From a virus (lineage: Duplodnaviria > Caudoviricetes): a stretch of DNA of 40,024 nt. The stretch is taken from the IMG/VR virus record IMGVR_UViG_3300025451_000027, positions 1 through 40,024 of that record, one strand, 5' to 3'. This document shows positions 1-39,916 of the stretch, piece after piece; the stretch's first letter is position 1, and every line of letters starts with the position of its first letter. The notes under the pieces were generated by a model. That model ran no database searches and was not told the origin of the DNA. It saw nothing but the letters and a program-made list of their open reading frames with translations. A program made the translations under genes and the position numbers.

Positions 1-248
1 TGCAGATCACGCTGGCGCTGAAGCGCGGCGCCAGAGGCGCGATGCTGATCGTGCCCGACGTCACCACCAAGGTGCCCGAGCCCAAGCTCGAAGCGACGAT
101 GTTGTGGGCCACGGTGGAAGGCAACCTGACGCCCGACAACCCGAAGCAGCAGAAGCTGGACCTGCGCCAGGTCGACCCCGACACCGGCGAGCTGCGCAGC
201 CTGGGCAGCGCCCCGGCCGCACCGGCTGAACTTCGCACGGCGGGCTGA
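1..248 (+). CDS. Phage hypothetical protein, 5'-truncated by window edge
   Basis: ORF ending ...GNLTPDNPKQQKLDLRQV..., resembles the small gene usually found upstream of DUF2303. Confidence 0.55.
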   Translation, partial: QITLALKRGARGAMLIVPDVTTKVPEPKLEATMLWATVEGNLTPDNPKQQKLDLRQVDPDTGELRSLGSAPAAPAELRTAG

Positions 249-249
249 C

Positions 250-1167
250 ATGGCCTCGTCGTTCGGCACCCCCCAACCCCAACAGCCCGCAGCGGCCAAG
301 CCCATCATCATGGAAACCAAAAACATTGCCGAGACGTTGGCTGACGTGCTGCCCAAGGTCAGCATCATCGGCGGCATCGATCCGACCACCGCCTTGCAAG
401 TGACGCTGGCCGCCGTGCCCAAGGGCCACGAGCTGCGCGAGGTGGACCTGGAGCGCCTGCTGCCCGCGCCGCGCCGCGCGGTGCTGGGCGTCAGCCTGGC
501 GCAGCCCGAGAGCTTCATCGACTACCTGACCCGCCACGCCAGCCCGGCCACGGTGGTGTGGTGCGACTTCAACCCGCAGACGCACCAGCTGGCCTTCGAG
601 GCGGTGTTCGACGACCTGGGCGCCAAGCAGGTGCCCGGTTGGCGCGGCCACCGCGCGCGCTATGCGCCCGAGCACAGCGCCGAGTGGAAGGTTTGGACCC
701 GAGCCAACGGCATGGACAAGGCACAGGCGCAGCTGGACTTCGCGATGTTTCTGGAGCGCAACGAGAGCGACATCGCAGCGGTTGAAGGCATGCCGACCAG
801 CGCCCAGATGATGCAGATGGCCACGGCCTTCGAGGCCAACAGCGACAAGCGGGTGAAGAGCATCGTCAAGATCCAGGGCGGCGGCACGCGGCTGGACTTC
901 ATCGACGACAACAACGCCGAGACCGAAGCGAACATGAAGCTGTTCGAGAAGTTCGCGATCGGCGTGCCGGTGTTCTGGGCCGGCCCGAGCTACCGCGTGG
1001 ATGCCAGGCTGCGCTACCGCCACGCCAGCGGCAAGGTGGCGTTCTGGTACGAGCTGATCCGCGCCGATCGGGTGCATGAAGCCGCGGCCAAGGAACTGAT
1101 CGAGAAGATCCGCACCGGACTGCCCGAGGGCGTGCCGCTGCTGATGGGCACCACCGCCAAGGCCTGA
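250..1167 (+). CDS. DUF2303 (YfdQ-like) phage protein
   Basis: Motifs SFIDYL, WRGHRARY, SAEWKVW, QLDFAMFLE, ARLRYR, FWYEL. Confidence 0.8.
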   Translation: MASSFGTPQPQQPAAAKPIIMETKNIAETLADVLPKVSIIGGIDPTTALQVTLAAVPKGHELREVDLERLLPAPRRAVLGVSLAQPESFIDYLTRHASPATVVWCDFNPQTHQLAFEAVFDDLGAKQVPGWRGHRARYAPEHSAEWKVWTRANGMDKAQAQLDFAMFLERNESDIAAVEGMPTSAQMMQMATAFEANSDKRVKSIVKIQGGGTRLDFIDDNNAETEANMKLFEKFAIGVPVFWAGPSYRVDARLRYRHASGKVAFWYELIRADRVHEAAAKELIEKIRTGLPEGVPLLMGTTAKA

Positions 1168-1176
1168 GCGACCGCC

Positions 1177-1422
1177 ATGCGCACCGAGACGATCACCTGG
1201 AATGAATTGCCGGCCGACGGCGTGCCGGATGCCGACACGACTGTGCTGGTTGCGTTCAAGTTCAACGACGAGCCGGCCGTCGACACATCCGCCATCGACA
1301 CCTGGCCAGCTTGGTGGAGCGGCGAGCACTGGATGGACGCTGCTACGGGTGATCGCATGGAGCGCTGGGGCGACTGCAAGGTGGTGGCCTGGGCTGACAT
1401 GCCGGCGGGTGGCGCGGCATGA
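1177..1422 (+). CDS. Phage hypothetical protein (DUF551-like, W-rich)
   Basis: 81 aa, TW..LP...PD..VLV ... VVAWADMP pattern; coupled to the next gene. Confidence 0.6.
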   Translation: MRTETITWNELPADGVPDADTTVLVAFKFNDEPAVDTSAIDTWPAWWSGEHWMDAATGDRMERWGDCKVVAWADMPAGGAA

Positions 1423-2333
1423 TCGCCATCGACCTGTTTGCCGGTGCCGGCGGTTTCAGCACCGGCGCCGCCTCAGCGGGCTGCACGGTGGCTTGGGCCG
1501 CCAACCACTGGCCCGCCGCGGTGGAATGGCACAGCGCAAACCACCCGACCACGCTGCATGCCTGCCAGGATCTGCAACAGGCCGACTTCACGGATGCGCC
1601 GCAGCACGATCTGCTGCTGGCCTCGCCGGCCTGCCAGGGCCACAGCCGCGCCCGCGGCGCCGAGCGCGCGCACCATGACGGTCAGCGCGCGACAGCCTGG
1701 GCAGTGATCACCTGCGCCGAGGTGCACCGGCCTGCTTTCGCGCTGGTCGAGAACGTGCCCGAGTTCGCCGCGTGGGCGCTCTACCCGGCGTGGTGCGCAG
1801 CGTGGCGCGCGCTGGGCTATGCCCTGGCGCCGCAGATCATCGACGCCGCCGACCATGGTGTGCCGCAGAACCGGCGGCGCCTGTTCATCGTGGCCAGCAG
1901 AAGCAAGCACCCGGCGGCGCTGGATCTGCAGCCGCGCGAGCACCGGCCAGCGGCCGAGGTGATCGACTTCAACGCCGGCCGGTGGTCGATGGTAGACAAG
2001 CCCGGCCGCAGCGCCCGCACCCTGTCTCGCGTGGCCGCCGGCCGGCGCCAACACGGCGCGCGCTTCGTAGCGCCCTACTACGGCAGCGGCAGCGGCGAGA
2101 CCGGCCGCAGCCTGGCCCGGCCGCTGGGCACGATCACCACGCGCGACCGCTGGGCCGTGATCGACGGCGACCGGTTGCGCATGCTGTCGGCCGACGAGTG
2201 CCGGGCGGCGATGGGCTTCCCGGCCGGCTACAGGCTGCCCGCGCAGCATCACCAGGCCGTGCATCTGCTTGGCAATGCGGTTTGCCCACCGGTGGCCGCC
2301 GACATCATCAACGCGCTGAGGGCTGCAGCATGA
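1419..2333 (+). CDS. DNA cytosine-5 methyltransferase
   Basis: Motif I DLFAGAGG, motif IV ASPACQGHS, motif VI ENV, motif VIII PQNRRRLF, motif X GNAV. Confidence 0.9.
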   Translation: MIAIDLFAGAGGFSTGAASAGCTVAWAANHWPAAVEWHSANHPTTLHACQDLQQADFTDAPQHDLLLASPACQGHSRARGAERAHHDGQRATAWAVITCAEVHRPAFALVENVPEFAAWALYPAWCAAWRALGYALAPQIIDAADHGVPQNRRRLFIVASRSKHPAALDLQPREHRPAAEVIDFNAGRWSMVDKPGRSARTLSRVAAGRRQHGARFVAPYYGSGSGETGRSLARPLGTITTRDRWAVIDGDRLRMLSADECRAAMGFPAGYRLPAQHHQAVHLLGNAVCPPVAADIINALRAAA

Positions 2334-2776
2334 GCCGCCACCGCAAGGCTCAGCCCGAGCTGCGCCCGGTCTACGCGCAGCCCAAGCTAGACCGGCGCGA
2401 CCGTGCCGCGGCGCGGGCCTTTCGCGAAGCCGCCTTCACCGGCGCCCGCCACCGCCCCGCGCCCGGCGACTTCGACCCGCTGCATCTGCGCCAGGGCATG
2501 CGTGCAAACGAGGTGCAGCAGCGCGCCGGCTGGGTGGTCAGCAATCCGCTGCTCGATCAGACCCTGGTGCGCAATCCAGGCCTTGACGCGAGCCTGCCAG
2601 GCTATGGCTGGCTGCGCATGGTCTACCGCTCGCGCTTCTGCGACCTGGTGTGCTTGCCGGGAACGCTGGCCGCGATCGAAAAGCAGGTTCCGGCCGAGAG
2701 GTCGGCCGCGATGCCTGCGCCTGCTGCGAGTGCAGTGACCGCAGTCGAGGTTGATCAGATGGAGATGTTTGCATGA
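2330..2776 (+). CDS. Hypothetical protein
   Basis: ATGA overlap with the MTase stop; MSRHRKAQ...QMEMFA. Confidence 0.55.
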   Translation: MSRHRKAQPELRPVYAQPKLDRRDRAAARAFREAAFTGARHRPAPGDFDPLHLRQGMRANEVQQRAGWVVSNPLLDQTLVRNPGLDASLPGYGWLRMVYRSRFCDLVCLPGTLAAIEKQVPAERSAAMPAPAASAVTAVEVDQMEMFA

Positions 2777-2828
2777 GCACCGGCCACATCACCTACCCAG
2801 CAGGATCCCTGGTGCGCGCGTCGGAGAT
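2773..2828 (+). pseudogene. N-terminus of an ORF (MSTGHITYPAGSLVRASEI) interrupted by the junction
   Basis: ATGA-coupled start at 2773; the sequence switches to the attC body at 2829. Confidence 0.45.
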
Positions 2829-2883
2829 CGTTGCCGGTAACCGGCTTGCCGAAGGCAAGTCCGGGTTGACCGGCCTGTTGGGC
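2829..2883 (-). other. attC A2, copy truncated at the crossover point
   Basis: Same as 39862-39916 but the CCATAA part is replaced by GGAGAT. Confidence 0.8.
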
Positions 2884-2991
2884 GGCCCTACCCGAAGCGA
2901 AAAGGACTGAGCATGAAGGACGAACTGCTGGTGCGTGCTGCACAGGCCAACGGCCACGCCTACCCGTGGACGATGCCGAACGGCTTTGGCG
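2829..2991 (+). repeat. Direct repeat copy 1 (163 bp; copy 2 at 39862-40024)
   Basis: Identical except G2864 vs A39897. Confidence 0.95.
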
Positions 2992-3272
2992 AGCGGCCGT
3001 GGAACCCGCTGACCAACAACGAGGACGCCTTGGTGCTGGCGGTGCGCATCGGGCTGCAGGTGACCGCGTACCCGATGTATGACGAGCCGAAGCATTCGGT
3101 GATCGTGCGCAAGCCGGTATGGGACCACGATGCGCAGGAAGGCGATGGCGTGGAAGTTGTCGAGCCCTACGGCACCGATGCGCTGGCGGCCACGCGCCGC
3201 GCCATCACGATGTGTGCTGCTGAGCTGGCACGCCGCAAGACGCCCAACGTCAATGGTGAGGCGACCACGTAG
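2913..3272 (+). CDS. Cassette gene, phage hypothetical protein
   Basis: WNPL....DAL.LAV.. and ATRRAI..AAE motifs common in phage accessory proteins; reads into the attC (NVNGEATT). Confidence 0.75.
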   Translation: MKDELLVRAAQANGHAYPWTMPNGFGERPWNPLTNNEDALVLAVRIGLQVTAYPMYDEPKHSVIVRKPVWDHDAQEGDGVEVVEPYGTDALAATRRAITMCAAELARRKTPNVNGEATT

Positions 3273-3343
3273 GCGCGCGCCGAGTTGTCCGGAAATCCCG
3301 GACGACTCACGCCGGAGTGGGTCGCCTCGACCTGGAGTTGGGC
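3242..3343 (-). other. attC A3 (102 bp, same as B2)
   Basis: GCCCAAC...GTTGGGC; stem GGTGAGGCGACC/GGTCGCCTCGACC with extra base; nested hairpin in the loop. Confidence 0.85.
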
Positions 3344-3367
3344 TGGTTCCGAAGCGAAGGAAAGACG

Positions 3368-3598
3368 ATGAGCGACTTTTACAACCCGCACGAAGACCGC
3401 ACGGCGCGCAAGGCTCACCGCTGCACCTACTGCGCCGAGCAGATTGCGGTTTGCGAACACTATGTGCACCAGACCGGCGTGTATGACGGCAAGTGGTACA
3501 CGAACAAGATGCACCCGGAGTGCTTCAAAGAGCTGTGCGACGAGGGAGAAGGTGAATTCACACCGTACAGCAACGAGCGGCCGAAGGCCGACGCCTAA
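3368..3598 (+). CDS. Cassette gene, small Cys/His (Zn-binding) protein
   Basis: ARKAHRCTYC...HPEC motif; stop TAA is part of GCCTAAC. Confidence 0.75.
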   Translation: MSDFYNPHEDRTARKAHRCTYCAEQIAVCEHYVHQTGVYDGKWYTNKMHPECFKELCDEGEGEFTPYSNERPKADA

Positions 3599-3694
3599 CG
3601 CTAGGTTAACCGGCCCGAAACGGCCCGAACAGGAGTATGCAAATGGAACAGACTAGCCCGGCCGTTTTGGGTCCGGTTGAACCGACAGTTATGC
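3593..3694 (-). other. attC A4 (102 bp; RBS and ATG of the next gene in its loop)
   Basis: GCCTAAC-6nt-GTTAACCGGCCC...GGGTCCGGTTGAAC-5nt-GTTATGC. Confidence 0.8.
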
Positions 3695-3993
3695 AGCACA
3701 CGCCGGGGCCGTGGAAGGCTAGTGTTTGCAACTCTGAGCGCTACAGCTACACCGTGGACGCGGCCGGGCCGTGGCCTTACAACCATGTTGCGCTGATACC
3801 TGAAATGTACGGGCCGCACTGCCTGACGCCTGGCGCACATGCTGCCAACGTGCGCTTGATCGAGGCCGCCCCTGACTTGCTGGCTGCGTGCCTGGCCCTG
3901 AAGGTCGCTGGCCCGCTTGGGCAGCGCGAATGGAACGCCGCTGCGGACATGATGGACGCGGCGATTGCCAAGGCTGTTGCAGGTGCTGCATAA
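3637..3993 (+). CDS. Cassette gene, phage hypothetical (HTPGPW...ANARLIAAAPDLL type)
   Basis: HTPGPW and ANVRLIEAAPDLL motifs; AGGAG RBS inside the attC. Confidence 0.75.
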   Translation: MQMEQTSPAVLGPVEPTVMQHTPGPWKASVCNSERYSYTVDAAGPWPYNHVALIPEMYGPHCLTPGAHAANVRLIEAAPDLLAACLALKVAGPLGQREWNAAADMMDAAIAKAVAGAA

Positions 3994-4047
3994 CCAATAA
4001 GTTAACCGGCGCCCGAATGGGCGTCCGAGTTGAACTGGCGGTTAGGC
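3988..4047 (-). other. attC A5 (60 bp, same as B6)
   Basis: GCATAAC CAATAA GTTAACCGGCGCCCGAATGGGCGTCCGAGTTGAAC TGGCG GTTAGGC. Confidence 0.9.
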
Positions 4048-4075
4048 GTGTGGGTGAGAAACAAGGAGAACGACG

Positions 4076-4321
4076 ATGGAAAAGTTTGAAGCGCTGAAGA
4101 AGGCCAAGGCATCGGAGCGGCATTACCCGTCCGACTACTGGGGCAACAACGACCCACGCTGCCCGCACTGCGGCCAGGAGTGCAAGGTGGCCGACAACGA
4201 GTGGTGGGAGCTGTACGAAGAAGGCGAGCACGAGGTTTCGTGCCCGCACTGCGACGGCGATTTCAGCGTGAGCACGAGGGTTAGCTACAGCTTTAGCACC
4301 GATGAGCAAGAAGACGCCTAA
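4076..4321 (+). CDS. Cassette gene, zinc-ribbon protein
   Basis: Two CPHC motifs; AAGGAG RBS; stop in GCCTAAC. Confidence 0.75.
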   Translation: MEKFEALKKAKASERHYPSDYWGNNDPRCPHCGQECKVADNEWWELYEEGEHEVSCPHCDGDFSVSTRVSYSFSTDEQEDA

Positions 4322-4388
4322 CGTTCGAGCTAACCGGACCGTGGAGGCCGAAGGCCGGAACGGGTCCGAGTTGAGCGAGTAGTTAGCC
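4316..4388 (-). other. attC A6 (73 bp)
   Basis: On the minus strand GGCTAAC TACTC GCTCAACTCGGAC...GTCCGGTTAGC TCGAAC GTTAGGC. Confidence 0.9.
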
Positions 4389-4416
4389 CGCCGCAACGAG
4401 AAGCGAGAGGACAGTG

Positions 4417-4851
4417 ATGAGCAAGGGATTCGCAGCGATTGCGCTGCACCAGCCGAAAGACCCGCTGAACGTGGGTGAGGTGCTGCGCGCTGCCGGGTGC
4501 TACGGCGCCGCGATGGTGGCCGCCAGTGGCGTGCGCTACCACCGCGCCCGTACCGACACGCAAGCGGCGCACCGACACCTGCCGCTGCTGACGTGCGACG
4601 ACTTGCGCGCCATGATCCCGCACGGGGCGGTTCCGGTGGCGGTTGACTTGATCGAAGGCGCGCAGGCCCTGCCTGGCTACAAGCACCCGCGCAGCGCGTT
4701 CTACGTGTTCGGACCCGAGGACGGCACGCTAGGACCCGAGGTGCTGGCCTGGTGCCGTGATGTGGTGTACGTGCCGACGCGCCACTGCATGAACTTGGCC
4801 GCCACGGTGAATGTGGTGCTTTACGACCGCGCCGCGAAACAAGCGGGCTAA
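4417..4851 (+). CDS. Cassette gene, SpoU/TrmH-family (SPOUT) RNA methyltransferase
   Basis: PKDPLNVGEVLRAAGCYG, YVFGPEDGTL, YVPTRHCMNLAATVNVVLYDR. Confidence 0.85.
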   Translation: MSKGFAAIALHQPKDPLNVGEVLRAAGCYGAAMVAASGVRYHRARTDTQAAHRHLPLLTCDDLRAMIPHGAVPVAVDLIEGAQALPGYKHPRSAFYVFGPEDGTLGPEVLAWCRDVVYVPTRHCMNLAATVNVVLYDRAAKQAG

Positions 4852-4947
4852 CGTCGAAGGTAACGCGCCTGGCGCGGCGCAAAAGACGCCAAATGAATAA
4901 CGGAAGCTCGCTCGCCGCGACAGGTCGCGTTGACCGCAGCTTTGCCG
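4846..4947 (-). other. attC A7, degenerate (R'' box damaged)
   Basis: GGCTAAC-6nt-GGTAACGCGCCTG...CAGGTCGCGTTGACC-5nt-TTTGCCG instead of GTTRRRY. Confidence 0.6.
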
Positions 4948-5160
4948 TTGCATGGCGGCCCGAGCCTGCTGCGATGGCATTACGACGATGACCGCAAGCC
5001 GACCAGCGTGCAGATCGGCGCGGACTACAACCACCTGCACGACACGCACTTCAGCAGCTACGCCACCGCCGATGACGCTTACGAGGTATTTGCTGACGCC
5101 GAGCGACTGTTTAACCACCTGGCAGAGATGGTGGCTACGGAGGCTGTTGGTGCTGCCTAA
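4930..5160 (+). pseudogene. Cassette gene, probably 5'-truncated
   Basis: No good start or RBS; stop TAA in GCCTAAC. Confidence 0.45.
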
Positions 5161-5177
5161 CGTGCTTTAGACAACAT
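5155..5177 (-). other. Putative attI-like entry site of array A
   Basis: Minus strand ...TGTCTAAAGCAC/GTTAGGC: core site with no palindromic partner, at the array boundary. Confidence 0.45.
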
Positions 5178-5210
5178 CAGAAGACTTTAAGCAATGCACA
5201 AGGGCAACCC

Positions 5211-5441
5211 ATGAACACCGACGAATTCGAGGAACGCATGACGCGCCTTGTCATTGCCCCAAAGGGTGAGCCGATCTTTAGCGAGCAGGCGACAACCGTT
5301 GAAATAGACGACGAGTCAGGCGGCGAGTTCGTCGTGATTTCCCAGCATCTTGGCGATTACGGGAAGATCGCCATTGGTCCGACCGAGTGGCCCGCGATCC
5401 GCGCTGCCGTGGAAAAGATGATTGGACTTTGCCGTTCGTGA
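5211..5441 (+). CDS. Phage hypothetical protein
   Basis: 76 aa, PKGEPIFSE..T.VEI.DE.GGEFV motif. Confidence 0.65.
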   Translation: MNTDEFEERMTRLVIAPKGEPIFSEQATTVEIDDESGGEFVVISQHLGDYGKIAIGPTEWPAIRAAVEKMIGLCRS

Positions 5442-5459
5442 GAAAGACTAGGTGATCGA

Positions 5460-5684
5460 ATGACAGAAACCAGAACCATCACATTCCGCGTGTTCAGGAG
5501 CCCCAGCGGCGAACCTACATGCTGCGCCGATGCACTGACGGGCGCTCACTGCAAGTTTCTTGGCGCCAAAGAATTTGGCCTCGTTCCGGTCTGCATGGCA
5601 GTCGGTGAAGATTTGTACCGTACTAGCGATGCTGGGTGGCTTGTTCCGCACGATGACTGCCCGATGTGGGCTGGACGGCCATGA
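5460..5684 (+). CDS. Cys-rich hypothetical protein
   Basis: ATG start, ATGA-coupled to the next gene. Confidence 0.5.
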   Translation: MTETRTITFRVFRSPSGEPTCCADALTGAHCKFLGAKEFGLVPVCMAVGEDLYRTSDAGWLVPHDDCPMWAGRP

Positions 5685-5977
5685 GCATCAACCGCTACGC
5701 CGCGCGCACTGACGCTAACAAAGCCGCCATCGTTGCTGCCTTCATTGATGAGGGCTGCAGCGTGTACGACCTTCGCCAGCCGGTGGATTTGCTGGTGGGC
5801 ATCAATTTGATGACTATGCTCGTTGAGTGCAAGGATGGATCGAAGCCGCCCAGCGCAAGAAAGCACACCCCAGCTCAAGCCAAGTTCATGAGCACCTGGC
5901 GCGGCGGCCCTGTGGCAACCGTGACCGATGTTGAAGGCGCCCGGAGAGTGGCGCGAATGATGAAAGGACACGAATGA
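5681..5977 (+). CDS. PD-(D/E)XK / VRR-NUC-like nuclease
   Basis: DAN..IV ... PVDLLVG ... LVECKDG ... TPAQAKF..W pattern. Confidence 0.7.
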   Translation: MSINRYAARTDANKAAIVAAFIDEGCSVYDLRQPVDLLVGINLMTMLVECKDGSKPPSARKHTPAQAKFMSTWRGGPVATVTDVEGARRVARMMKGHE

Positions 5978-6378
5978 GCAAAGCACCGCCAGACTTCAGC
6001 TACATCAAGCCCGAGCACCGCGCCATTGATGGCCGTCTAGTCAATTGGGCCAGGTGCGTCAGGACTTATCCACTTTCTCGCACTCACCCAATGTTCAGCC
6101 AATACCGAAGCTCTGAGCGATGGGACGAGTTGAGCGCGTCAATCCCAGCGGATCAGGTGGACGGGCTGGTGATCGAGCGGGCAGTGGCGCAGATCGACAA
6201 CGACCCGCGCGAGGCGCTGAGGTGGTTCTATGTCTACGGTGGTTCGCCCAACAAGGCCGCAAAGTACATCAAGTGCAGCGCTCACGGCCTGGCCGAGCTT
6301 CTGCACCAAGGCCGCGATCTGTTGCAAAAGCGCACTAGCTCACGCAATGAGCTTGCACTAGCTCACAACATGAGCTAG
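5974..6378 (+). CDS. Putative late-gene antiterminator/activator (Q-like)
   Basis: RL.NWARC N-terminus, C-terminal sigma4-like HTH; sits directly before a promoter-terminator and the terminase genes. Confidence 0.6.
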   Translation: MSKAPPDFSYIKPEHRAIDGRLVNWARCVRTYPLSRTHPMFSQYRSSERWDELSASIPADQVDGLVIERAVAQIDNDPREALRWFYVYGGSPNKAAKYIKCSAHGLAELLHQGRDLLQKRTSSRNELALAHNMS

Positions 6379-6381
6379 TAT
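6332..6381 (+). promoter_or_regulatory. Putative late promoter with two palindromic boxes
   Basis: TTGCAC(6353)-17nt-TAGTAT(6376); two AGCTCA-N5-TGAGCT palindromes. Confidence 0.55.
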
Positions 6382-6476: not shown

Positions 6477-6514
6477 CATTGGAGCCAGCGACCCGGAAAC
6501 GGACTGGTTAGACG

Positions 6515-25099: not shown

Positions 25100-25166
25100 G
25101 CCTAACTACCGTTCGAGCTGACCCGCGCCGGCAAGCCGTCGCGGTCAGCTCAACTAGACGTTGGGC
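25100..25166 (+). other. attC B1 (67 bp)
   Basis: GCCTAAC TACC GTTCGAGCTGACC...GGTCAGCTCAAC TAGAC GTTGGGC. Confidence 0.9.
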
Positions 25167-25423
25167 CTCAAGGCCCGCAGATCGGGGCATGCCTGCTCGC
25201 ACACCTCCGCCAGCACTGCCGCAGTGATGTCGTCAAATGCTGTGTCTGACCTGCTCACGCGCCAGTGCACAGAACTAAGCGCAGAACGAAGCCGTGCAAT
25301 CTCTGCCGCAGCCTCGCGCATCAATCCTGCCGGTGTAGTAATGCCCATCAGATCGCACATGTCGGTCGAATCAATCAACCGCTTTTCAAGAGTGCTTCCA
25401 ATCGGGTCTGTGCAGCTTCCCAT
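25154..25423 (-). CDS. Cassette gene, hypothetical
   Basis: GGAGG RBS before ATG 25423; LMREAAAEIARLR motif. Confidence 0.65.
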   Translation of the reverse strand: MGSCTDPIGSTLEKRLIDSTDMCDLMGITTPAGLMREAAAEIARLRSALSSVHWRVSRSDTAFDDITAAVLAEVCEQACPDLRALRPNV

Positions 25424-25522
25424 GAGTCCTCCAATCGCCCGGCTGCGCCAGGCTTCAATGCACACGCTCAGCGCTGCGCGCTCAGCTTCCAGTTTTCTCA
25501 GCTTGGCCACGCCCCGGACACA

Positions 25523-25624
25523 GCCCAACTCCAGGTCGAGGCGACCCACTCCGGCGTGAGTCGTCCGGGATTTCCGGACAACTCGGCGCGCGCCTACGTG
25601 GTCGCCTCACCATTGACGTTAGCG
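25523..25624 (+). other. attC B2 (102 bp, reverse complement of A3)
   Basis: GCCCAAC...GTTAGCG; matches 3246-3345. Confidence 0.85.
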
Positions 25625-26340
25625 GTCATCAGTTGTTCGGCCAAGATGGCGAATGCAGCCGCTGCCACTCTTGGAACTTGTCCGTTTCCAATGGCTTTAA
25701 GTCGCTCCACCCCTGCGGCCACCCCATCAACCACTCCGACAATTCCGGGTTTATCCACCCTTCTACCGTTCCAAGTTCGGGGAGGTTTTTCCCATTCCGT
25801 AAGTTGCTGCCAAACCCCGATATAACTTTTCGGCCATCGCTCGCCTGCGGCGTGGCCCACAATCCAGATGCGGTCGCGTTGGTGGGGCGCTCCAGTGTTT
25901 CCGGCTGAAACACAAGTCCACGCCGCATCAAACCCCAGCTTGGCAAGGTCGCCCAAAACCACGGCAAGTCCTCGCTCCACAAGCAAAGGTGAGTTTTCCA
26001 CGAACACGAATCTAGGTCGTACTTCACCAATGATTCGCGCCATTTGATACCACATAGAACTTCTGTCGCCATCTATGCCCGCTCCTTTTCCTGCACTACT
26101 GATGTCCTGGCACGGAAACCCGCCCGAAACAACATCAACAATTCCTCTCCACGGGGTTCCATCAAAGGTTTGCACGTCATCCCATATCGGGAAAGGTTCC
26201 AAAACCTTGTCGTTTTGTCGCTGGGCAAGTACGCCTGCGGGGTAGGGTTCCCACTCAACGGCGCACACTGTTCGCCATCCGAGAAGTTTTCCCCCAAGTA
26301 TTCCGCCACCAGCGCCCGCGAAAAGAGCCAACTCATTCAT
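25594..26340 (-). CDS. Cassette gene, DNA cytosine-5 methyltransferase (alpha-type chain lacking motif IX)
   Basis: LFAGAGG, GGFPCQDIS, FVENSP, PHQRDRIW, LKAIGNGQVP. Confidence 0.88.
   Translation of the reverse strand: MNELALFAGAGGGILGGKLLGWRTVCAVEWEPYPAGVLAQRQNDKVLEPFPIWDDVQTFDGTPWRGIVDVVSGGFPCQDISSAGKGAGIDGDRSSMWYQMARIIGEVRPRFVFVENSPLLVERGLAVVLGDLAKLGFDAAWTCVSAGNTGAPHQRDRIWIVGHAAGERWPKSYIGVWQQLTEWEKPPRTWNGRRVDKPGIVGVVDGVAAGVERLKAIGNGQVPRVAAAAFAILAEQLMTANVNGEATT
25629..26072 (-). CDS. Nested alternative-frame ORF, putative beta chain of the MTase
   Basis: WATP.ASD and INPELSEWLMGWPQGWS (motif IX-like). Confidence 0.55.
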   Translation of the reverse strand: MATEVLCGIKWRESLVKYDLDSCSWKTHLCLWSEDLPWFWATLPSWGLMRRGLVFQPETLERPTNATASGLWATPQASDGRKVISGFGSNLRNGKNLPELGTVEGWINPELSEWLMGWPQGWSDLKPLETDKFQEWQRLHSPSWPNN

Positions 26341-26384
26341 TTCTCCTGTCCTCACCGTATCGCCAGCACCGACTTTTCAAAAAC

Positions 26385-26441
26385 CGCTAACACGTCGGTC
26401 AAGCGGACGGCTTTCAGCCGCCGCTTACCTTGTCGTTAGGG
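26385..26441 (+). other. attC B3 (57 bp)
   Basis: CGCTAAC ACGTC GGTCAAGC GGAC...GCC GCTTACC TTGTC GTTAGGG. Confidence 0.9.
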
Positions 26442-26615
26442 CGCTTCAGGCCCGCCAGCGTTGGGCTTCGTTGACATCGCTGCGGCAACCTTAGCCACAG
26501 CGTGCCAGCGTGCCCATTCGTCTGTTTCAGGCCCGCGCCACTGGCCGTGCTCGTCGTAGTAGTAGGCGCGACGCAGGGCATCTTCTAGTGGCGTGTTTGG
26601 TATCTCTTGCTTCAT
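26436..26615 (-). CDS. Cassette gene, 59-aa hypothetical (not in the ORF track)
   Basis: MKQEIPNTPLEDALRRAY...GGPEAP; ATGA-coupled; stop TAA in the B3 core. Confidence 0.55.
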   Translation of the reverse strand: MKQEIPNTPLEDALRRAYYYDEHGQWRGPETDEWARWHAVAKVAAAMSTKPNAGGPEAP

Positions 26616-27405
26616 ACCAACTCCAGCACTTCCTGTGCAATCCGTTGTTCCGCTATCGCGCAGTATTCCGGGTTCACCTCCAGACCGATGAACTGACGGC
26701 CCAACGTCTTCGCTGCCTTGGCAGTCGTGCCGCTGCCGCTGAAGGGGTCAAGCACCAGATCGCCGGGGTTGCTCCAAGTGGCTACGTGGTCGCGGGCCAG
26801 GTCAAACGGGAACGGGGCCGGGTGGTCGCTCTTGTCTTCTGCTGCCTGCTGGCTCGCCAATCCCAAGTCCCATACGTTCGTGCGCAGGCCCAGGTCGCCA
26901 ATCTGCACAATGCGCCCCGTGTCTTTGCTGCCGTACTTCTCTGCCCGGCCGCCACTCGTCCCGGCGCGGCTTGTGCCGGCGCTCTTGTTCACACGGTCGG
27001 CCAGCCTGTTGCTTGTCTTTGGCTTGCCCTTTGTCACCACAAACATGAACTCAGCACTCTGCGGGTAAGCGTCGTTGTTGCCGTTCGCACCAGCCGGGGG
27101 CTTGTTCCAAATCATCGTGTCCAGCAGGTTCAGCCCCAGCCGCTTGAAGTGCAGCGCCTGCTCCATGCTGCTGCCCGTCTCGCTGCCGTCCTTCGTGGCG
27201 TCGGCCACTACCCACACGATCACGCCGCCAGGCTTCAGCACGCGCTTCAGGTGCCACGCCACGCCGAAGAAGTCCCAGCTATGCCGCCGTAGGTGCGCAA
27301 GTCGTCATAGGGCGGGCTCGTCACCACCAAATCAACGCTCTCGCGTGGCATCTTGCCCAGCAAGTCGCAGTTGTCGCCGCAGTGAATCTGGTTCAGTTCA
27401 AGCAT
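26612..27405 (-). pseudogene. Cassette gene, N4-C/N6-A DNA methyltransferase (beta class) with a 1-nt frameshift near 27283
   Basis: VTSPPY in one frame, HPAPFP and DPFSGSGTT in the other; GGCATAGC would read G-H-S with one more C. Confidence 0.8.
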
Positions 27406-27435
27406 GCACACATCCTCTCGTTTCTCAACCATGCG

Positions 27436-27504
27436 CCCTAACATGTCAGTCAACCGGAATTGCCCCGGCAGGCCGGGTCAATCCGGTTACCGGCCACGTT
27501 AGTC
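27436..27504 (+). other. attC B4 (69 bp)
   Basis: CCCTAAC ATGTC AGTCAACCGGAATTG...CAATCCGGTTACC GGCCAC GTTAGTC. Confidence 0.88.
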
Positions 27505-27666
27505 GCTTGGCTCACGCACCCGGTCCAGCCAGTCGCGCAGCCGCTGGTGGCCTATCCGTGTGAGCTTGGCTTTTTGGGCATCGTTCAAACGAACTGGCAC
27601 AGGGTTGAGCTTTTCACCGGGGGCCTTTGCAGGCCGCCCGGTTTTCTTGGCGGCCGGTTCGCTCAC
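27499..27666 (-). CDS. Cassette gene, 55-aa GRP/ribbon-helix-helix-like DNA-binding protein (not in the ORF track)
   Basis: MSEPAAKKTGRPAKAPGEKLNPVPVRLNDAQKAKLTRIGHQRLRDWLDRVREPSD; GTGA-coupled; stop in the B4 core. Confidence 0.6.
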   Translation of the reverse strand: MSEPAAKKTGRPAKAPGEKLNPVPVRLNDAQKAKLTRIGHQRLRDWLDRVREPSD

Positions 27667-27839
27667 TTGACTTTGACCGCGACCAGTTCGGACTCGTGAC
27701 CCATCACAGCCTCGGCATCAGCCTTGCTTTCGTAGCCCGCATCCTTGCAGGCGGCTTCGATTGCTGCTTCCTGGCTGTCGGCTTCGTACACGCCGAAAGA
27801 GTGGGCCGACTTGCTGTTGCTGACTTCGTACTTGCTCAT
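27663..27839 (-). CDS. Cassette gene, small acidic hypothetical protein
   Basis: AGGAG RBS; MSKYEVSN...FGVYEADS..AAIEA...DAGY. Confidence 0.65.
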   Translation of the reverse strand: MSKYEVSNSKSAHSFGVYEADSQEAAIEAACKDAGYESKADAEAVMGHESELVAVKVK

Positions 27840-27882
27840 GTTGCTCTCCTGGGTTGCTGCGGCGTCTTGCTGCAGTGGTGTT

Positions 27883-27921
27883 AATGTAATACCGCAACGG
27901 CAAGCACGCAAGCACTTTTTT
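27883..27921 (-). promoter_or_regulatory. Sigma70-like promoter inside a cassette
   Basis: A-tract, TTGCGT-17nt-TACATT. Confidence 0.65.
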
Positions 27922-27936
27922 GTAACACCAAAACGC

Positions 27937-28002
27937 GCCTAACACTTCGTTCCAGCGGACGTGCCGCTGGCGCGGCCCGCGCGCTGAACTCAAGCGTTAG
28001 GC
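27937..28002 (+). other. attC B5 (66 bp)
   Basis: GCCTAAC ACTTC GTTCCAGC GGAC...GCTGAAC TCAAGC GTTAGGC: canonical architecture. Confidence 0.92.
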
Positions 28003-28004
28003 AA

Positions 28005-28277
28005 CTAGGCGTGCCACTTGCTGATTGCGCGCGACAGTTCTTCGCGCCCGATGCCTTCGCGCAAGGCATCTTCTTCAAGGCTCTTACGCACGGCATGAGC
28101 ATTGCGGTTAATCAGCGCCATCTCTCGCGGGTTCGCCGGAATGATTCCGTCTTTTCCCATCGGGCCTGTGCAAACCGTCTGGTCATAGGCTTCGCATTCC
28201 GTGTGGTAGCGAGTTGCCATTTCATGCAGCCGGTTGTCGCGCTCTGTGGGTTTCCACTCTTGCTGCCATTCGTTCAT
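28005..28277 (-). CDS. Cassette gene, hypothetical
   Basis: GGAGA RBS; MNEWQQEW...CEAYDQTVCTG. Confidence 0.65.
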   Translation of the reverse strand: MNEWQQEWKPTERDNRLHEMATRYHTECEAYDQTVCTGPMGKDGIIPANPREMALINRNAHAVRKSLEEDALREGIGREELSRAISKWHA

Positions 28278-28297
28278 GCTTCTCTCCGAAAATCGTT

Positions 28298-28357
28298 GCC
28301 TAACCGCCAGTTCAACTCGGACGCCCATTCGGGCGCCGGTTAACTTATTGGTTAGGC
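28298..28357 (+). other. attC B6 (60 bp, reverse complement of A5)
   Basis: Matches 3991-4047. Confidence 0.9.
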
Positions 28358-28358
28358 G

Positions 28359-28631
28359 TCATCGGTCTTCAGGCTCGACCCAGAGCTGATCGGCTGTATA
28401 TGCGCTCTGCAAGAGCTTCGCAAAATCCATCAGGCCGTATCCCTCTTCTGGTGTTCCGCGCTGCGGGTACGCGATGGACCGCGCAATGTTTCTCAGCCTC
28501 AAGTTTTCGGCGTGCAACTCAAGAATGTCTGCCTTTGCGTCTTGCAGCGCAAACATTACTGCCGGCGCGCTCTGGTTGTGCGCCATTGCCTTTGGGTCGC
28601 AGACCCTCCAGGTCTCAATACTTCGCTTCAT
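28359..28631 (-). CDS. Cassette gene, hypothetical
   Basis: GAGGGG RBS; MKRSIETWRVCDPKAM... Confidence 0.65.
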   Translation of the reverse strand: MKRSIETWRVCDPKAMAHNQSAPAVMFALQDAKADILELHAENLRLRNIARSIAYPQRGTPEEGYGLMDFAKLLQSAYTADQLWVEPEDR

Positions 28632-28672
28632 GTCATTCCCCTCTGTTGGCCCTTCTGTTTGTTGCGCGTAAC

Positions 28673-28729
28673 GCCTAACCGTTCGCTCAAGCGGACGGCT
28701 ACGCCGCGCGCTTAGCTGTTTGGTTAGGC
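28673..28729 (+). other. attC B7 (57 bp)
   Basis: GCCTAAC CGTTC GCTCAAGC GGAC...GCTTAGC TGTTTG GTTAGGC. Confidence 0.92.
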
Positions 28730-28966
28730 CCGTTTGTTCCAGCGCCGAATCGCGCAGTCCATGTAGGCGCCTGTCCCGCGCTCGTCGGCGCTGTCCTGTC
28801 CGTCCTTCACGCTTGGGGCTACGGCGCACCGGCTGCTGGCGCAGTACACCTTGCCCCAGGCGTTGCCCTCCTCGTCGGGGTTCTGAGGCGCCAGCTTCGG
28901 TTTGGTGCCACAAAACGGGCATGGCAGCGGCACCAGCTTGGGTTTCAGTTGCTTCTCACGCATCAT
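28724..28966 (-). CDS. Cassette gene, Lar-family (restriction alleviation) zinc-finger protein
   Basis: LPCPFCG...VYC...C...AIRRWNKRA. Confidence 0.75.
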   Translation of the reverse strand: MMREKQLKPKLVPLPCPFCGTKPKLAPQNPDEEGNAWGKVYCASSRCAVAPSVKDGQDSADERGTGAYMDCAIRRWNKRA

Positions 28967-28985
28967 CTCGCTCCGGTTACAACGG

Positions 28986-29039
28986 GCCTAACCCGTCATT
29001 CGAGCCGACCGTTCCGGCGGCTCAATTCCCACGTTAGGC
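28986..29039 (+). other. attC B8 (54 bp)
   Basis: GCCTAAC CCGTC ATTCGAGC CGAC...CG GCTCAAT TCCCAC GTTAGGC. Confidence 0.9.
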
Positions 29040-29363
29040 ATCACGAATACGCGCCGCCAGCATCGCGGCATCAATCAGCGCGTCCATGCTATCGGCTGGT
29101 GCGTGCTGGGTGCCGCCTTCTGCGAGCGAGTGCGTTGCGCTGAATTCCGTGCCGTCCATGCGCTTCCACACGTTCGGCTGTTTCTCGCTTCTCAGCGTCA
29201 GGCCCTGGCGGCTTTTCAGCCAGCGGTAACGTGCCGCATCCTTCTCAAGCGCCGCCTGTCGCGCTTCTGCGCGTTGCGGACACGTCCGCCCAACTGCTTG
29301 GTCGAGGCGACCCCCAACAGCAGGGGCGTCCTGTGGCGTATCGGTAGCAGTTTTGTCGTTCAT
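29034..29363 (-). CDS. Cassette gene, phage hypothetical (DAARYRWL...DALIDAAM type)
   Basis: Motifs as named; the start lies inside attC B9. Confidence 0.7.
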   Translation of the reverse strand: MNDKTATDTPQDAPAVGGRLDQAVGRTCPQRAEARQAALEKDAARYRWLKSRQGLTLRSEKQPNVWKRMDGTEFSATHSLAEGGTQHAPADSMDALIDAAMLAARIRDA

Positions 29364-29408
29364 GTGTTTCCTCGTGCTGTCGGGGTCGCCTCACCGCGAA
29401 CGTTAGGC
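29288..29408 (+). other. attC B9 (121 bp; RBS and ATG in the loop)
   Basis: GCCCAAC TGCTT GGTCGAGGCGACCCC...GGGGTCGCCTCACC GCGAAC GTTAGGC. Confidence 0.85.
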
Positions 29409-29777
29409 CTCTCGCACGCGGGCCAGCAAAGTGCCTGGCTTTGCAATGCGGCTGCCAATCTCGCGCATGTGCTGCGAGTACACGGCTGGCTCGCACTCAC
29501 GGACTAGCGCGCGCAGCCGGTCGGACTTCACCTCTGCGTCCAGCAACGCGTTGTTCAGCGTCAGCACCTGGTCGGCCAGTTCCAACGTGTCGGCCTCGTC
29601 GTACAGGGCGCGCATAGTCTCAACGGCCCCGCACGAACTACACCAACTGTCGCCGGGCGTAAGGCCCTCGCTGGTGCTGGTGTGGCCGCATCGGCTGCAC
29701 TTCCACGCGACAGGCCTAACAGGCCGCTGCACCGGCCCTGCGTCGGCGCGGCTGCTCTTGCTCGCTTCGTCACTCAT
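29403..29777 (-). CDS. Cassette gene, zinc-ribbon plus coiled-coil hypothetical
   Basis: CSRC...CSSC; the start lies inside attC B10. Confidence 0.7.
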   Translation of the reverse strand: MSDEASKSSRADAGPVQRPVRPVAWKCSRCGHTSTSEGLTPGDSWCSSCGAVETMRALYDEADTLELADQVLTLNNALLDAEVKSDRLRALVRECEPAVYSQHMREIGSRIAKPGTLLARVREA

Positions 29778-29815
29778 GGCTCGCGCCTCCTTGTCCGGTG
29801 AGCTTTGCGTTAGAA
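29714..29815 (+). other. attC B10 (102 bp; RBS and ATG in the loop)
   Basis: GCCTAAC AGGCC GCTGCACCGG...CCGGTGAGC TTTGC GTTAGAA. Confidence 0.75.
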
Positions 29816-37998: not shown

Positions 37999-38433
37999 AT
38001 GGCAAGCGTCAACAAAGTAACCCTCATCGGCAACCTGGGCCGCGATCCTGAAGTGCGCTATGCGCCCAGCGGCGCCGCAGTCTGTAACATCACCATTGCC
38101 ACGTCGCGGAGTTGGAAGGACAAGACCAGCGGCGAGCGCCAGGAAGAAACCGAATGGCACCGCGTGGTCTTTTACGACAAGCTGGCTGAAATCGCCGGGC
38201 AGTACCTGAAGAAGGGAAAGCCGGTCTACATCGAAGGCCGCCTGAAAACGCGCAAGTGGACCGACAAGGATGGCGTCGAGAAGTACACCACCGAGATCAT
38301 CGCCAACGAAATGACGATGCTTGGCGGAAACGACGGCGAACAAAAGCCGCAGCAGACGCACAGCCAGCAGCGCCAGGCAGCGGCCAAGGCGGTGACGGGG
38401 TTTGATGGGATGGAGGACGACATCCCGTTTTGA
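37999..38433 (+). CDS. ssb: Single-stranded DNA-binding protein
   Basis: [21 protein letters not shown] ... TEWHRVV ... DDIPF. Confidence 0.95.
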
Positions 38434-38434
38434 C

Positions 38435-38459
38435 GCCGAACGTTCACGGCGAGCTGACC
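38435..38459 (-). other. attC half site
   Basis: GCCGAAC GTTCAC GGCGAGCTGACC resembles the A1 arm GTTTAAC GTTGGA GGTGAGCTGACG; no second arm. Confidence 0.45.
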
Positions 38460-38489
38460 AAGGAGGCCTATCCAAATGTCCGGTGCCCA

Positions 38490-38699
38490 ATGATGGAACT
38501 TCTGCAACTGGATGGCGAAGGCGTCGAGATCGGGGACATGCACGCCGATGCGCTGGCGAAGTTTGCCGGGATGCCCGCGCTGAGCGTGCAGCTCAGTGAC
38601 GGTCGGGTTGTTGTTCTGATCGGCATGACGCGCGAGGAATGCAAGGCTTGCTTGCCTGCGTTTTTGGCGCCTGCGCGGATTAAGGTGTGCGGTGTTTAA
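38490..38699 (+). CDS. Cassette gene, hypothetical (start uncertain)
   Basis: Stop TAA in GTTTAAC. Confidence 0.5.
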   Translation: MMELLQLDGEGVEIGDMHADALAKFAGMPALSVQLSDGRVVVLIGMTREECKACLPAFLAPARIKVCGV

Positions 38700-38813
38700 C
38701 GTTGGAGGTGAGCTGACGTTGGCAGCGCGCGCCGAAACATGAACACAGAAGAAATTCACATGGACAAAGAACCTTCCCCGCTGGCAACGGTCAGCTCGAC
38801 CGACGGGTTAGGC
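38694..38813 (-). other. attC A1 (120 bp; ATG in the loop)
   Basis: GTTTAAC-6nt-GGTGAGCTGACGTTG...CAACGGTCAGCTCGACC-5nt-GTTAGGC. Confidence 0.8.
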
Positions 38814-39089
38814 CTGGCCCCGGAGCGTGCCGAAGACGCGCACGCAGAGCACTGGCAAGCGCTGGTGCGGGCATCGAACGCCATAGCACGCAGCCCGCAG
38901 TGTGGCCCAGAGCAGGCGCGCGAGTTTTGCGCTGCGGTAGATCGCCTATCGGCTGCGCTGATGCGCGGCGATGAGCCGGCCTACACCGCAGACCAGATCG
39001 CCGATGCCTGCATGGCGGCCGAGATACCCGACAGCAAGTTTGAGAGCCTGCTGATTGCATTGCGGGCCTACCAGAGAGGAAACCGATGA
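38739..39089 (+). CDS. Cassette gene, hypothetical
   Basis: Starts within attC A1 (ATG 38739 or 38760). Confidence 0.6.
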   Translation: MNTEEIHMDKEPSPLATVSSTDGLGLAPERAEDAHAEHWQALVRASNAIARSPQCGPEQAREFCAAVDRLSAALMRGDEPAYTADQIADACMAAEIPDSKFESLLIALRAYQRGNR

Positions 39090-39394
39090 ACTGGATCAAG
39101 CAATTCTTTTGCGCACACCGCTATGAGTGGGCGCGCAACATCTACGGCGATGAAATCAACGCTTGCAGCATGCTCTACGGAGCCGCCCGCCGCGCTGCGC
39201 GTGCCCTTGGACATGAACCGATTTACACGTACACGCTGCCCGACGAAGGCGGTGCCAGCTTGCGAGCCGCTGGATTTAGGCTCGACAAAGAGGACGCGGG
39301 CGGAAGCGCCGCGATGTGGCACAGCCGGCCTGGCCGCACTGCTGAACCCGTAGGCGATGACCTTGTTGGCGGCAAATGGAGGTGGATTGGATGA
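39086..39394 (+). CDS. Chimeric ORF with an XF1762-like C-terminus
   Basis: NACSMLYGAA.RAA.ALG....TYTL..E.GASLRAAG. Confidence 0.55.
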   Translation: MNWIKQFFCAHRYEWARNIYGDEINACSMLYGAARRAARALGHEPIYTYTLPDEGGASLRAAGFRLDKEDAGGSAAMWHSRPGRTAEPVGDDLVGGKWRWIG

Positions 39395-39861
39395 GCAGAG
39401 AAGCATGGGGCGATCCGCCCGAACCACAAGCCCCGCGCTGCCCGGTGTGCGACGGCACAGAGCACACCAACGACTGCGAGCTTGGCGAGGAAATGGCGAA
39501 GAGGCAGCAATGCGAGCGAGAGCTTGCCGAGTGGCGCGAACTGGCGCTGTCTCAGGCCGGCGACGCTGGGCTGTTGGCGCGGATGGTGAAGGCCGAGACG
39601 GAATCCGCGCTCTTGGGCGCGGAGGTAGACCGATTGCAAAAAGAACTCGACAGCGCCGGCTTGGCTCGGACGGTGGCCGACGTGGTGAAGCGCGACGCCT
39701 ACCGCTTCCGCAAACTGCTGATGCAGGGCTCACACTGGCTCGGCGTGTTCCGGTGTGACCCTGACGGAACCCCATCCGACAGCATCAGCACCGACGAGCT
39801 GAGCGCGCTACTCGACGCGATGCACGGGCCAGAAATGCCGCCCGTACCTGAAGCGCCATAA
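39391..39861 (+). CDS. Hypothetical zinc-finger/coiled-coil protein
   Basis: CPVC....H..DC; DA.RFR motif; stop TAA in CCATAAC. Confidence 0.6.
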   Translation: MSREAWGDPPEPQAPRCPVCDGTEHTNDCELGEEMAKRQQCERELAEWRELALSQAGDAGLLARMVKAETESALLGAEVDRLQKELDSAGLARTVADVVKRDAYRFRKLLMQGSHWLGVFRCDPDGTPSDSISTDELSALLDAMHGPEMPPVPEAP

Positions 39862-39916
39862 CGTTGCCGGTAACCGGCTTGCCGAAGGCAAGTCCGAGTT
39901 GACCGGCCTGTTGGGC
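39856..39916 (-). other. attC A2 (61 bp, intact copy)
   Basis: CCATAAC GTTGCC GGTAACCGGCTTGCCGAAGGCAAGTCCGAGTTGACC GGCCT GTTGGGC. Confidence 0.88.

What the first reader, a model, noticed from the sequence alone, without database searches (positions are those of the whole stretch)
2829..5177. Second cassette array (A) in the opposite early operon, spanning the circular junction
Seen: attC-like sites at 38694, 39856 (=2829), 3242, 3593, 3988, 4316 and a damaged one at 4846, between ssb and the nuclease/Q region. One genome thus has two arrays, one in each divergent early operon downstream of the core replication or recombination genes. Inference: this is an organised genome design, not a single captured host fragment.
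Basis: partly seen in the sequence, partly recalled or inferred. Interest (0 to 1): 0.85.

Follow-up and report, generated by a model that had tools for sequence, protein, structure and literature searches.

The report
Mirror-image integron cassette arrays in phage
A phage genome carries two rows of integron-type recombination hairpins, one behind each of its two early gene blocks, with the cargo genes on the strand opposite to bacterial integrons; close relatives hold other genes at these hairpins, which the host's integron integrase likely swaps in and out.

Summary
Confirmed. A covariance model built from 32 bacterial attC sites finds 17 strong hits: 7 in array A at the stated places, 10 in array B, none elsewhere. 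The phage has no IntI. New to the finding: polarity is reversed, so the recombining strand is the coding strand and the site precedes its gene. One shared attC motif is reversed at 37 of 38 viral sites, but canonical at 119 of 177 bacterial sites. Relatives carry both arrays with other cargo. Of 12 junctions, 6 lie at the IntI crossover, 1 at a bare G|TT and 5 elsewhere. Corrections: bases 1-2828 belong to a second, roughly sixfold rarer element, joined exactly at the crossover. In relatives the replication operon, not ssb, leads into Q, so this genome is inverted or mis-phased at a shared site. Some relatives lack the array, and other phages mostly have one array, so 'design' is too strong. 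Most likely host IntI shuffles phage genes in trans (untested). The scan noted reversed phage arrays before on other DNA. I found none in print; the closest work is Qi et al. 2023.

The parts
37999..38433 (+). ssb, last fixed gene before array A
   Evidence: PHROG 44, E 1e-59; L054 diverges directly behind it
38435..38462 (-). half attC (R' and L' only), crossover C at 38441; right arm lost
   Evidence: sequence; no model hit; no hairpin, z -0.39; identical in L052
38430..38699 (+). cargo ORF without family; stop in R' of site 38694
38694..38813 (-). attC (top strand minus); start codon of the next gene lies inside the site
   Evidence: 46.9 bits; ORF 38739-39089 starts within it
38739..39861 (+). 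three-gene unit: unknown ORF, ORF with a Mom-like C-terminal part, unknown ORF; last stop in R' of site 39856
   Evidence: (PHROG 1384, E 1.5e-10); L052 diverges inside the middle ORF at 39166
39856..39916 (-). attC at the circle junction, crossover C at 39862
   Evidence: 34.5 bits; z -4.24
2829..2883 (-). second copy of site 39856, starting at the crossover base; its R' is replaced by foreign DNA reading G|AT on the top strand (GWT, attG-like)
   Evidence: GWT consensus
2913..3272 (+). cargo ORF (PHROG 5086); reads through R' into site 3242
3242..3343 (-). attC; 100 nt identical, inverted, to the array B site 25523-25623
   Evidence: 52.2 bits
3368..3598 (+). cargo ORF (PHROG 7314); stop in R' of site 3593
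3593..3694 (-). attC; SD-like motif and ATG of the next gene in its loop
   Evidence: 50 bits
3637..3993 (+). cargo ORF (PHROG 1273), N-terminus encoded by the attC arm; stop in R' of site 3988
3988..4047 (-). attC; 57 nt identical, inverted, to the array B site 28298-28357
   Evidence: 36.2 bits
4076..4321 (+). cargo ORF, zinc-ribbon protein (PHROG 6504); stop in R' of site 4316
4316..4388 (-). attC; arms match a bacterial site at 20 and 25 of 26 positions
   Evidence: 60.5 bits
4417..4851 (+). cargo ORF, SpoU/TrmH-family RNA methyltransferase; stop in R' of site 4846
   Evidence: PF00588 59.5 bits, over cut-off
4846..4946 (-). attC with damaged R''; the ATG in its loop (4893) is out of frame with the following ORF
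   Evidence: 42 bits; sequence; same letters in run X2, record 4357-5184 with 0 differences
4930..5160 (+). last cargo ORF, 5' end probably frameshifted; stop in R' at 5155
   Evidence: codon score 14.4 against -10.3 for the other frame
5155..5185 (-). lone R' plus fixed phage flank: attI-like end of the array, crossover C at 5161
   Evidence: L009 joins the same flank here with another cassette; geometry like a candidate host attI in L085; not proven
5211..6378 (+). fixed block after the array: two small ORFs, nuclease, Q-like antiterminator
   Evidence: PHROG 93, E 8.6e-6; PHROG 79 weak, E 0.0087
25100..29815 (+). array B: ten attC sites in mirror polarity behind the replication genes; cargo on the minus strand (DNA methyltransferases, Lar-like)
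1..2828 (+). not part of the circle: second phage-like element (DUF2303, C5 methyltransferase, about 69% GC) joined at the crossover
   Evidence: depth 5.8-7.9 against 40-58 in run X1

Best explanation
Array A is one of two integrase-less attC cassette arrays of a phage, in which the recombining (bottom) strand of every site is the coding strand, and the cassettes are likely excised and inserted by the host's integron integrase acting in trans. Shown: sites of Burkholderiales chromosomal-integron type, reversed polarity, no IntI in the phage, variable cargo, and junctions at the G|TT crossover. A unit reads, on the coding strand, attC, ribosome-binding leader, gene, and a stop codon TAA that is also the AAC core of the next site. 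Inferred: (1) during infection host IntI recombines folded bottom strands (attC x attC, attC x attI-like, attC x GWT sites). (2) Reversed polarity is selected because a TAAC stop on the coding strand is a GTTA target on the other strand, so insertion there leaves the upstream gene whole and fixes the orientation. (3) Host cargo would be antisense and is lost, leaving the site fused to a phage gene, which makes a new cassette. (4) With replication from the iterons near 31.1 kb, both arrays put the bottom strand on the lagging-strand template, the orientation that favours excision. (5) Two arrays exist because the distal parts of both early operons tolerate insertions; shared sites let cassettes move between them and may have inverted the early region. 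Microhomology recombination acts on the same region as a second process.
For: 17 of 17 strong model hits lie in the two arrays with mirror strands. 7 of 9 R' boxes of array A hold the in-frame stop of the upstream ORF. One 22-nt attC motif is reversed at 37 of 38 viral sites (1 unclear) and canonical at 119 of 177 bacterial sites (18 reversed, 40 unclear); the 44 viral loci fall into 35 clusters. 5 of 5 bacterial genomes picked from the motif hits encode IntI over the cut-off. L052 has an extra cassette inserted at the crossover 29033, and swaps at 29401 and 28723 where only about 8 nt are shared. L054 diverges at 38435 and L009 at 5158. In run X3 a 20.6-kb contig matches 4316-8000 with 13 differences but has other DNA before 4316. 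The foreign tail joins at the crossover base with G|AT, fitting the GWT target of IntI. One viral contig has a truncated IntI directly behind a reversed cassette. The cumulative GC-skew minimum at 30890 lies beside the iterons (weak).
Against: No recombination was measured and the host is unknown. 5 of 12 junctions with relatives are not at sites; L005 and L053 lost the whole replication-side array by a microhomology fusion. The same site is often followed by different genes, with the join at R'', the leader or the ATG, which IntI crossover does not explain. No uninterrupted version of the 2828/2829 target was found, and the X1 contig over it has only 28 letters on one side, under the tool's 31-letter rule. 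0 of 40 attC-bearing viral records have IntI over the cut-off. The attI-like reading of 5161 rests on one relative and a loose resemblance.
Confidence: 0.6

Rival explanations
1. The sites are fossils of past IntI events and now work only as repeated linkers for the phage's own Erf-type annealing protein or host RecA, which reshuffle genes by short homology.
For: The phage encodes an Erf-like protein and SSB. 5 of 12 junctions are off-site, several at microhomologies. Identical sites recur in both arrays. One site is damaged and one is a half site, and both are conserved.
Against: At 29401 and 28723 the shared stretch is only the R' box plus at most one or two bases, and the following site is wholly different. 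Six of the seven sites of array A keep both R boxes and an attC-like fold despite unlike sequences. Uniform polarity across 35 clusters is not needed for homology-driven exchange.
Confidence: 0.25
2. The ssb-to-Q order of this contig is an assembly error at the 100-nt inverted repeat (3246-3345 and its copy in array B); in the real genome the replication operon runs into Q, and 'array A' is a hybrid of two arrays. This rival concerns the layout only, not the nature of the sites.
For: L005, L053 and L006 run from the replication-side HTH gene to Q, and L054 overlaps L009 by 126 nt in the same sense. The contig is already chimeric at 2829. In L052 the ssb-side copy of this repeat carries the array-B-type flank.
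Against: The terminal overlap is exactly 127 nt, which points to a 127-mer assembly graph (inference); repeats of 100 and 57 nt are shorter than that. L051 passes the 57-nt repeat as the window does. The B-type flank also follows this site in the Q-side array of L009, so it is not diagnostic.
Confidence: 0.25
3. The hairpins are kept mainly as mRNA elements (translation-start modules or processing sites) and DNA recombination is incidental.
For: An SD-like motif plus start codon follows R'' on the bottom strand at 51 of 95 viral sites against 19 of 202 bacterial sites; a GAAGCG-type leader follows at 21 of 95 against 6 of 202.
Against: It does not explain junctions at the crossover base or the host-type arms. 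It is compatible with the best explanation as a second role.
Confidence: 0.07
4. The array is a piece of a host chromosomal integron captured once by the phage.
For: The site arms are close to Burkholderiales integron sites.
Against: Cargo lies on the opposite strand to host cassettes, the named cargo is mostly phage-type, the sites are of mixed lengths, and relatives hold other cargo in both operons.
Confidence: 0.03

Closest known systems
[quoted passage not shown] 2023, PMC9892861
   Same: attC clusters in phage genomes, no intI, methyltransferase cargo. They showed that 5 of 6 phage sites recombine with IntI1.
   Different: Their example TJE1 is canonical: three sites with the top strand on the same strand as the genes. 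Each of their CALINs needed at least two sites, and the listed supplementary cases have 2-4. Here there are 17 sites in two mirror arrays with reversed polarity, and variation among relatives is shown. I checked polarity only in TJE1.
Sedentary chromosomal integrons of Burkholderiales (Pseudaquabacterium, Roseateles, Rubrivivax, Piscinibacter loci)
   Same: Site architecture and arm sequences.
   Different: They have intI, mostly canonical polarity and mostly 100-135 nt sites. Phage sites are often shorter, and expression would come from phage early promoters at the far end of the array.
SALINs and attG insertion, Loot et al., bioRxiv 10.1101/2022.09.11.507474
   Same: IntI inserts cassettes at GWT sites outside integrons; the 2828/2829 junction fits.
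   Different: Described for single cassettes in bacterial chromosomes, with no strand preference relative to transcription in their E. coli library. Here arrays in phages show a near-absolute preference.
Hypervariable distal parts of lambdoid early operons (nin region and the region behind the recombination genes; recalled, no call)
   Same: The arrays sit at the same two positions, and the cargo type (methyltransferases, Lar-like, small unknown ORFs) is alike.
   Different: In lambdoid phages as recalled, no site-specific recombination sites separate these genes.

Membership tests
attC site | R''/R' boxes RYYYAAC...GTTRRRY with L boxes forming an imperfect hairpin | tested here: met
   met for 6 of 7 array A sites, R'' degenerate at 4846
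attC site | strand asymmetry (extrahelical bases) defining a bottom strand | tested here: met
   each strong hit scores at least 29 bits better on one strand where both are listed
attC site | recombination by IntI as a folded bottom strand | not testable with these tools
   indirect only: junctions at the crossover
CALIN | two or more attC sites in a cluster | tested here: met
   7 and 10 sites
CALIN | no integron integrase nearby | tested here: met
   TIGR02249 no match in the record; tblastn with a bacterial IntI gave no hit at E<=1
Canonical integron gene cassette | ORF on the top strand, ended by its attC | tested here: not met
   array A cargo ORFs score 9.4-27.3 on the plus strand against -61.6 to 2.7 for the antisense frames; the top strand is minus
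Complete integron | intI gene | tested here: not met
Complete integron | attI site | tested here: inconclusive
   5155-5185 behaves as a fixed end in L009 and resembles a candidate host site; no attI model on hand
Complete integron | Pc promoter reading from attI into the array | tested here: inconclusive
   no sigma70-like promoter found in 2700-6600 or 33000-40024; such a promoter would read the cargo antisense
attG insertion (Loot et al.) | GWT at the crossover | tested here: met
   G|AT at 2829/2828 on the top strand
attG insertion (Loot et al.) | an uninterrupted target exists | tested here: inconclusive
   none found; these relatives match only the methyltransferase and DUF2303 parts

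The most novel reading that the evidence does not exclude
Phages of Burkholderiales run a mirror-image integron of their own. They hijack the host IntI, build cassettes de novo from phage genes by dropping attC sites at stop codons, use the site loop as the translation start, trade these cassettes between unrelated phages through attG-type insertion, and in this lineage use two mirror arrays both as a shared cassette pool and as a hinge that inverts the whole early region, swapping which operon drives Q.
Probability: 0.3. Interest if true: 0.88.

Novelty: new variant of a known kind. Interest (0 to 1): 0.7.

Why it matters
If host IntI shuffles these units, a part of phage genome mosaicism is site-specific rather than illegitimate recombination, and integron integrases serve the phage as well as the host. 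The reversed layout offers a testable route for how new cassettes arise (site dropped at a stop codon, then fused to the next gene), which to my knowledge is a long-open question in integron biology (recalled). The cargo (DNA methyltransferases, Lar-like and Mom-like proteins) points to fast turnover of counter-restriction genes. Practically, shared cassettes also produce chimeric phage contigs, as at 2829.

Tried and rejected
Rfam: only a tRNA, no family for the sites. Cultured phages: no DNA match to 2829-5200; plasmids gave only short matches to sites and the RNA methyltransferase. Ten more distant loci (3 erf, 6 terminase, 1 homologue of ORF 24313) had no site at E<=0.01. Searches for an empty form of the 2828/2829 target found nothing. 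Scans for relatives on the lysis side, to see which operon ends there, gave one distant locus and no locus. The only metagenome scan returned a record of the window's own length, so no new information. Parts of array A without cover in runs X3 and X4 were not used as evidence. Reads were laid on 1-8000 only, so array B and the phase of the 100-nt repeat are not checked by reads. Promoter and terminator scans were at chance level. The idea that the whole 37-kb circle integrates as one giant cassette was set aside: the right end of the contig shows an intact site and no second junction, and the tail is about sixfold rarer; it is not excluded. Literature searches found no paper on reversed or paired phage arrays; most subscription papers are not in the library.
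Full report
Setting. The window is a viral record without a host label. Bases 2829-39861 form a 37,033-nt circle: 2829-2991 repeats at 39862-40024 with one mismatch. The circle has a podovirus-type head module whose best capsid match among cultured phages is 42.7% identical, lysis genes, and two divergent early operons around a Cro-like gene. One runs through helicase, methyltransferase, Erf-like protein and ssb (plus strand); the other through the replication initiator, a partner gene and an HTH gene (minus strand). Among the 66 proteins scanned, none matched an integrase family in the best PHROG hits shown, and the IntI model has no match in the record.

The observation. I built a covariance model from 32 bacterial sites, picked by hand from about 150 found by script around a shared motif. 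The motif that fetched the bacterial loci came from a window site, so the model leans towards that family, but no phage site was in the alignment. Site 4846 keeps 42 bits but has lost the core of R''. A half site at 38435 and a lone R' at 5155 bound the array.

Polarity. All A hits have the top strand on minus and all B hits on plus, while the cargo ORFs lie on the other strand. In a canonical cassette the coding sequence is ended by its attC and the bottom strand recombines (passage). Here the site precedes its gene on the coding strand. In 7 of 9 R' boxes of array A the TAA is the in-frame stop of the upstream ORF. At 38694 and 3593 the next gene starts inside the site. To test generality I scanned bacterial genomes and viral contigs with one 22-nt motif and scored the flanking DNA with a codon model. 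37 of 38 viral sites were reversed and 1 unclear; of 177 bacterial sites 119 were canonical, 18 reversed and 40 unclear. Eight of the 44 viral loci gave no separate site (duplicates or too near a contig end); 3 of the 38 sites come from close relatives of the window; many bacterial sites come from one large array. The 44 viral loci form 35 clusters. TJE1, a published phage CALIN, is canonical.

Variation. Relatives with about 90-100% identity over shared stretches were found through terminase and replication genes. L052 and L054 carry sites behind ssb and behind the replication genes, in mirror polarity, with mostly other cargo. Of the 12 array-facing ends of gene-containing matches, six lie at an R' crossover (38435, 5158, 29401, 29035, 28723, and 29018, where the first mismatch falls three bases past it), one at a bare G|TT inside an ORF (29277), and five elsewhere (39166, 5403, the 5236/29841 fusion, 29846, 30053). 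Shorter matches confined to sites or leaders were left out of this count. L052 has one extra cassette inserted at 29033. In four runs laid on 1-8000, 22 of the 24 loose ends shown fall in the array: 19 in a site or within 3 nt of it and 3 at the ATG at 2913; 137 more were not shown. Repeats attract loose ends in any case, so I weigh only those at R', such as a 20.6-kb contig of X3 with another gene before 4316. X1 may be the source sample and is not independent.

The junction at 2829. Bases 1-2828 are about 69% GC, encode DUF2303 and a C5 methyltransferase, and have depth 5.8-7.9 in X1 against 40-58 for the phage core. They are a second element that shares the cassette. The shared stretch begins at the crossover base, and the foreign flank reads G|AT on the top strand, matching the GWT consensus of IntI insertions outside att sites. 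No empty target was found, so this is suggestive only.

Gene order. In L005, L053 and L006 the replication operon leads into the ORF 5211-nuclease-Q block, and L054 overlaps L009 by 126 nt from a crossover in the same sense. In the window ssb leads there. The two arrays share inverted repeats of 100 and 57 nt. Either the early region has inverted between the arrays or the contig is mis-phased. The exact 127-nt terminal overlap suggests an assembly word longer than both repeats (inference), and L051 agrees at the shorter repeat, so I put a real inversion at about 0.7-0.75. Reads over array B were not obtained, so this stays open.

Design or outcome. L005 and L053 have no replication-side array and L006 has one site. 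In 22 other attC-bearing viral records, 150 of 170 matches were listed and only G410 showed both strands; three of the four complete genomes had all five matches in one cluster. Two mirror arrays are thus a trait of this lineage, best read as insertions tolerated at the far ends of both early operons.

Mechanism. None of 40 attC-bearing viral records has IntI over the cut-off; one has a truncated IntI (244.6 bits, positions 7-210 of 315) directly behind a reversed methyltransferase cassette. Five of five bacterial genomes chosen for their arrays have a full IntI, and their sites match phage site arms closely, up to 49 of 52 positions for a site of L009. Host IntI in trans is the simplest catalyst (inferred). 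Loot et al. 2017 report that a bottom strand on the leading-strand template limits excision. With an origin at the iterons near 31.1 kb (skew minimum at 30890) both arrays would have the opposite, excision-prone orientation (inferred). Targeting of stop codons would explain the polarity, and the purine-rich bottom loops already carry SD-like motifs with ATG at 51 of 202 bacterial sites, which would let a site supply a translation start (inferred). Off-site junctions show that homology-driven exchange also acts.

What I read. PMC9892861: main text parts 1-4 of 7 (abstract to conclusion) and part 1 of 2 of its supplement; figures and the Dryad annotation file were not seen and may show reversed arrays among the other phages. 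bioRxiv 10.1101/2022.09.11.507474: passages, supplements not seen. PMC5371416: abstract and one discussion section. PMC13323075 and PMC13676570: passages, not relevant. Others: search listings only. Searches found nothing on reversed or paired phage arrays. Earlier notes of this scan describe reversed arrays on other DNA; none came up for paired arrays with inversion. I had reached the reversed reading before looking them up.

Verdict. A real phage CALIN pair of a variant kind: reversed polarity, variable cargo, crossover-precise junctions, probably driven by host IntI. Interest 0.7.

Noticed in passing
window 1-2828: A second, rarer phage-like element is fused to the circle; its last ORF (start 2773) is cut at codon 19 by the attC and ends just before the cassette's ATG. 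The record is therefore a chimera of two elements.
   Followed up: partly
window 3246-3345 / 25521-25620 and 3991-4047 / 28298-28354: The early region is inverted relative to relatives L005, L053, L006 and L054+L009; identical sites in the two arrays are candidate hinges.
   Followed up: partly
window 29402-29274; L052 9558-9701: A site plus short leader, bounded by G|TT at both ends, is swapped between the window and L052 in front of the same ORF body: a mini-cassette that supplies the gene's N-terminus.
   Followed up: partly
L226 1-1640 (G437): Viral contig with a truncated integron integrase directly downstream of a reversed methyltransferase cassette, followed by lysis-like genes on the other strand.
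   Followed up: partly
viral loci L212-L255; window 2884-2915, 3344-3370, 4389-4419: A GAAGCG-type leader follows R'' on the coding strand at 21 of 95 viral sites against 6 of 202 bacterial sites, and the same site plus leader is fused to different genes at the ATG.
   Followed up: partly
window 4417-4851: A SpoU/TrmH RNA methyltransferase as phage cassette cargo; a 75.6% identical copy lies in the unrelated viral locus L237.
   Followed up: no
window 33346-34052: A Cro-like gene faces a divergent ORF with no family match; no CI repressor or integrase was recognised, although the early region is laid out like a lambdoid phage.
   Followed up: no
window 26612-27453: The N6/N4 methyltransferase cassette of array B is split into two frames that match consecutive parts of PHROG 67.
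   Followed up: no
window 27499-27996; L052 830-1370: A two-gene cassette with promoter-like DNA of its own and a small DNA-binding-like gene sits in array B; a similar unit is in the ssb-side array of L052.
   Followed up: no
window 32875-32945: tRNA gene on the minus strand (Rfam, 56 bits); the anticodon reads TCC (Gly).
   Followed up: no
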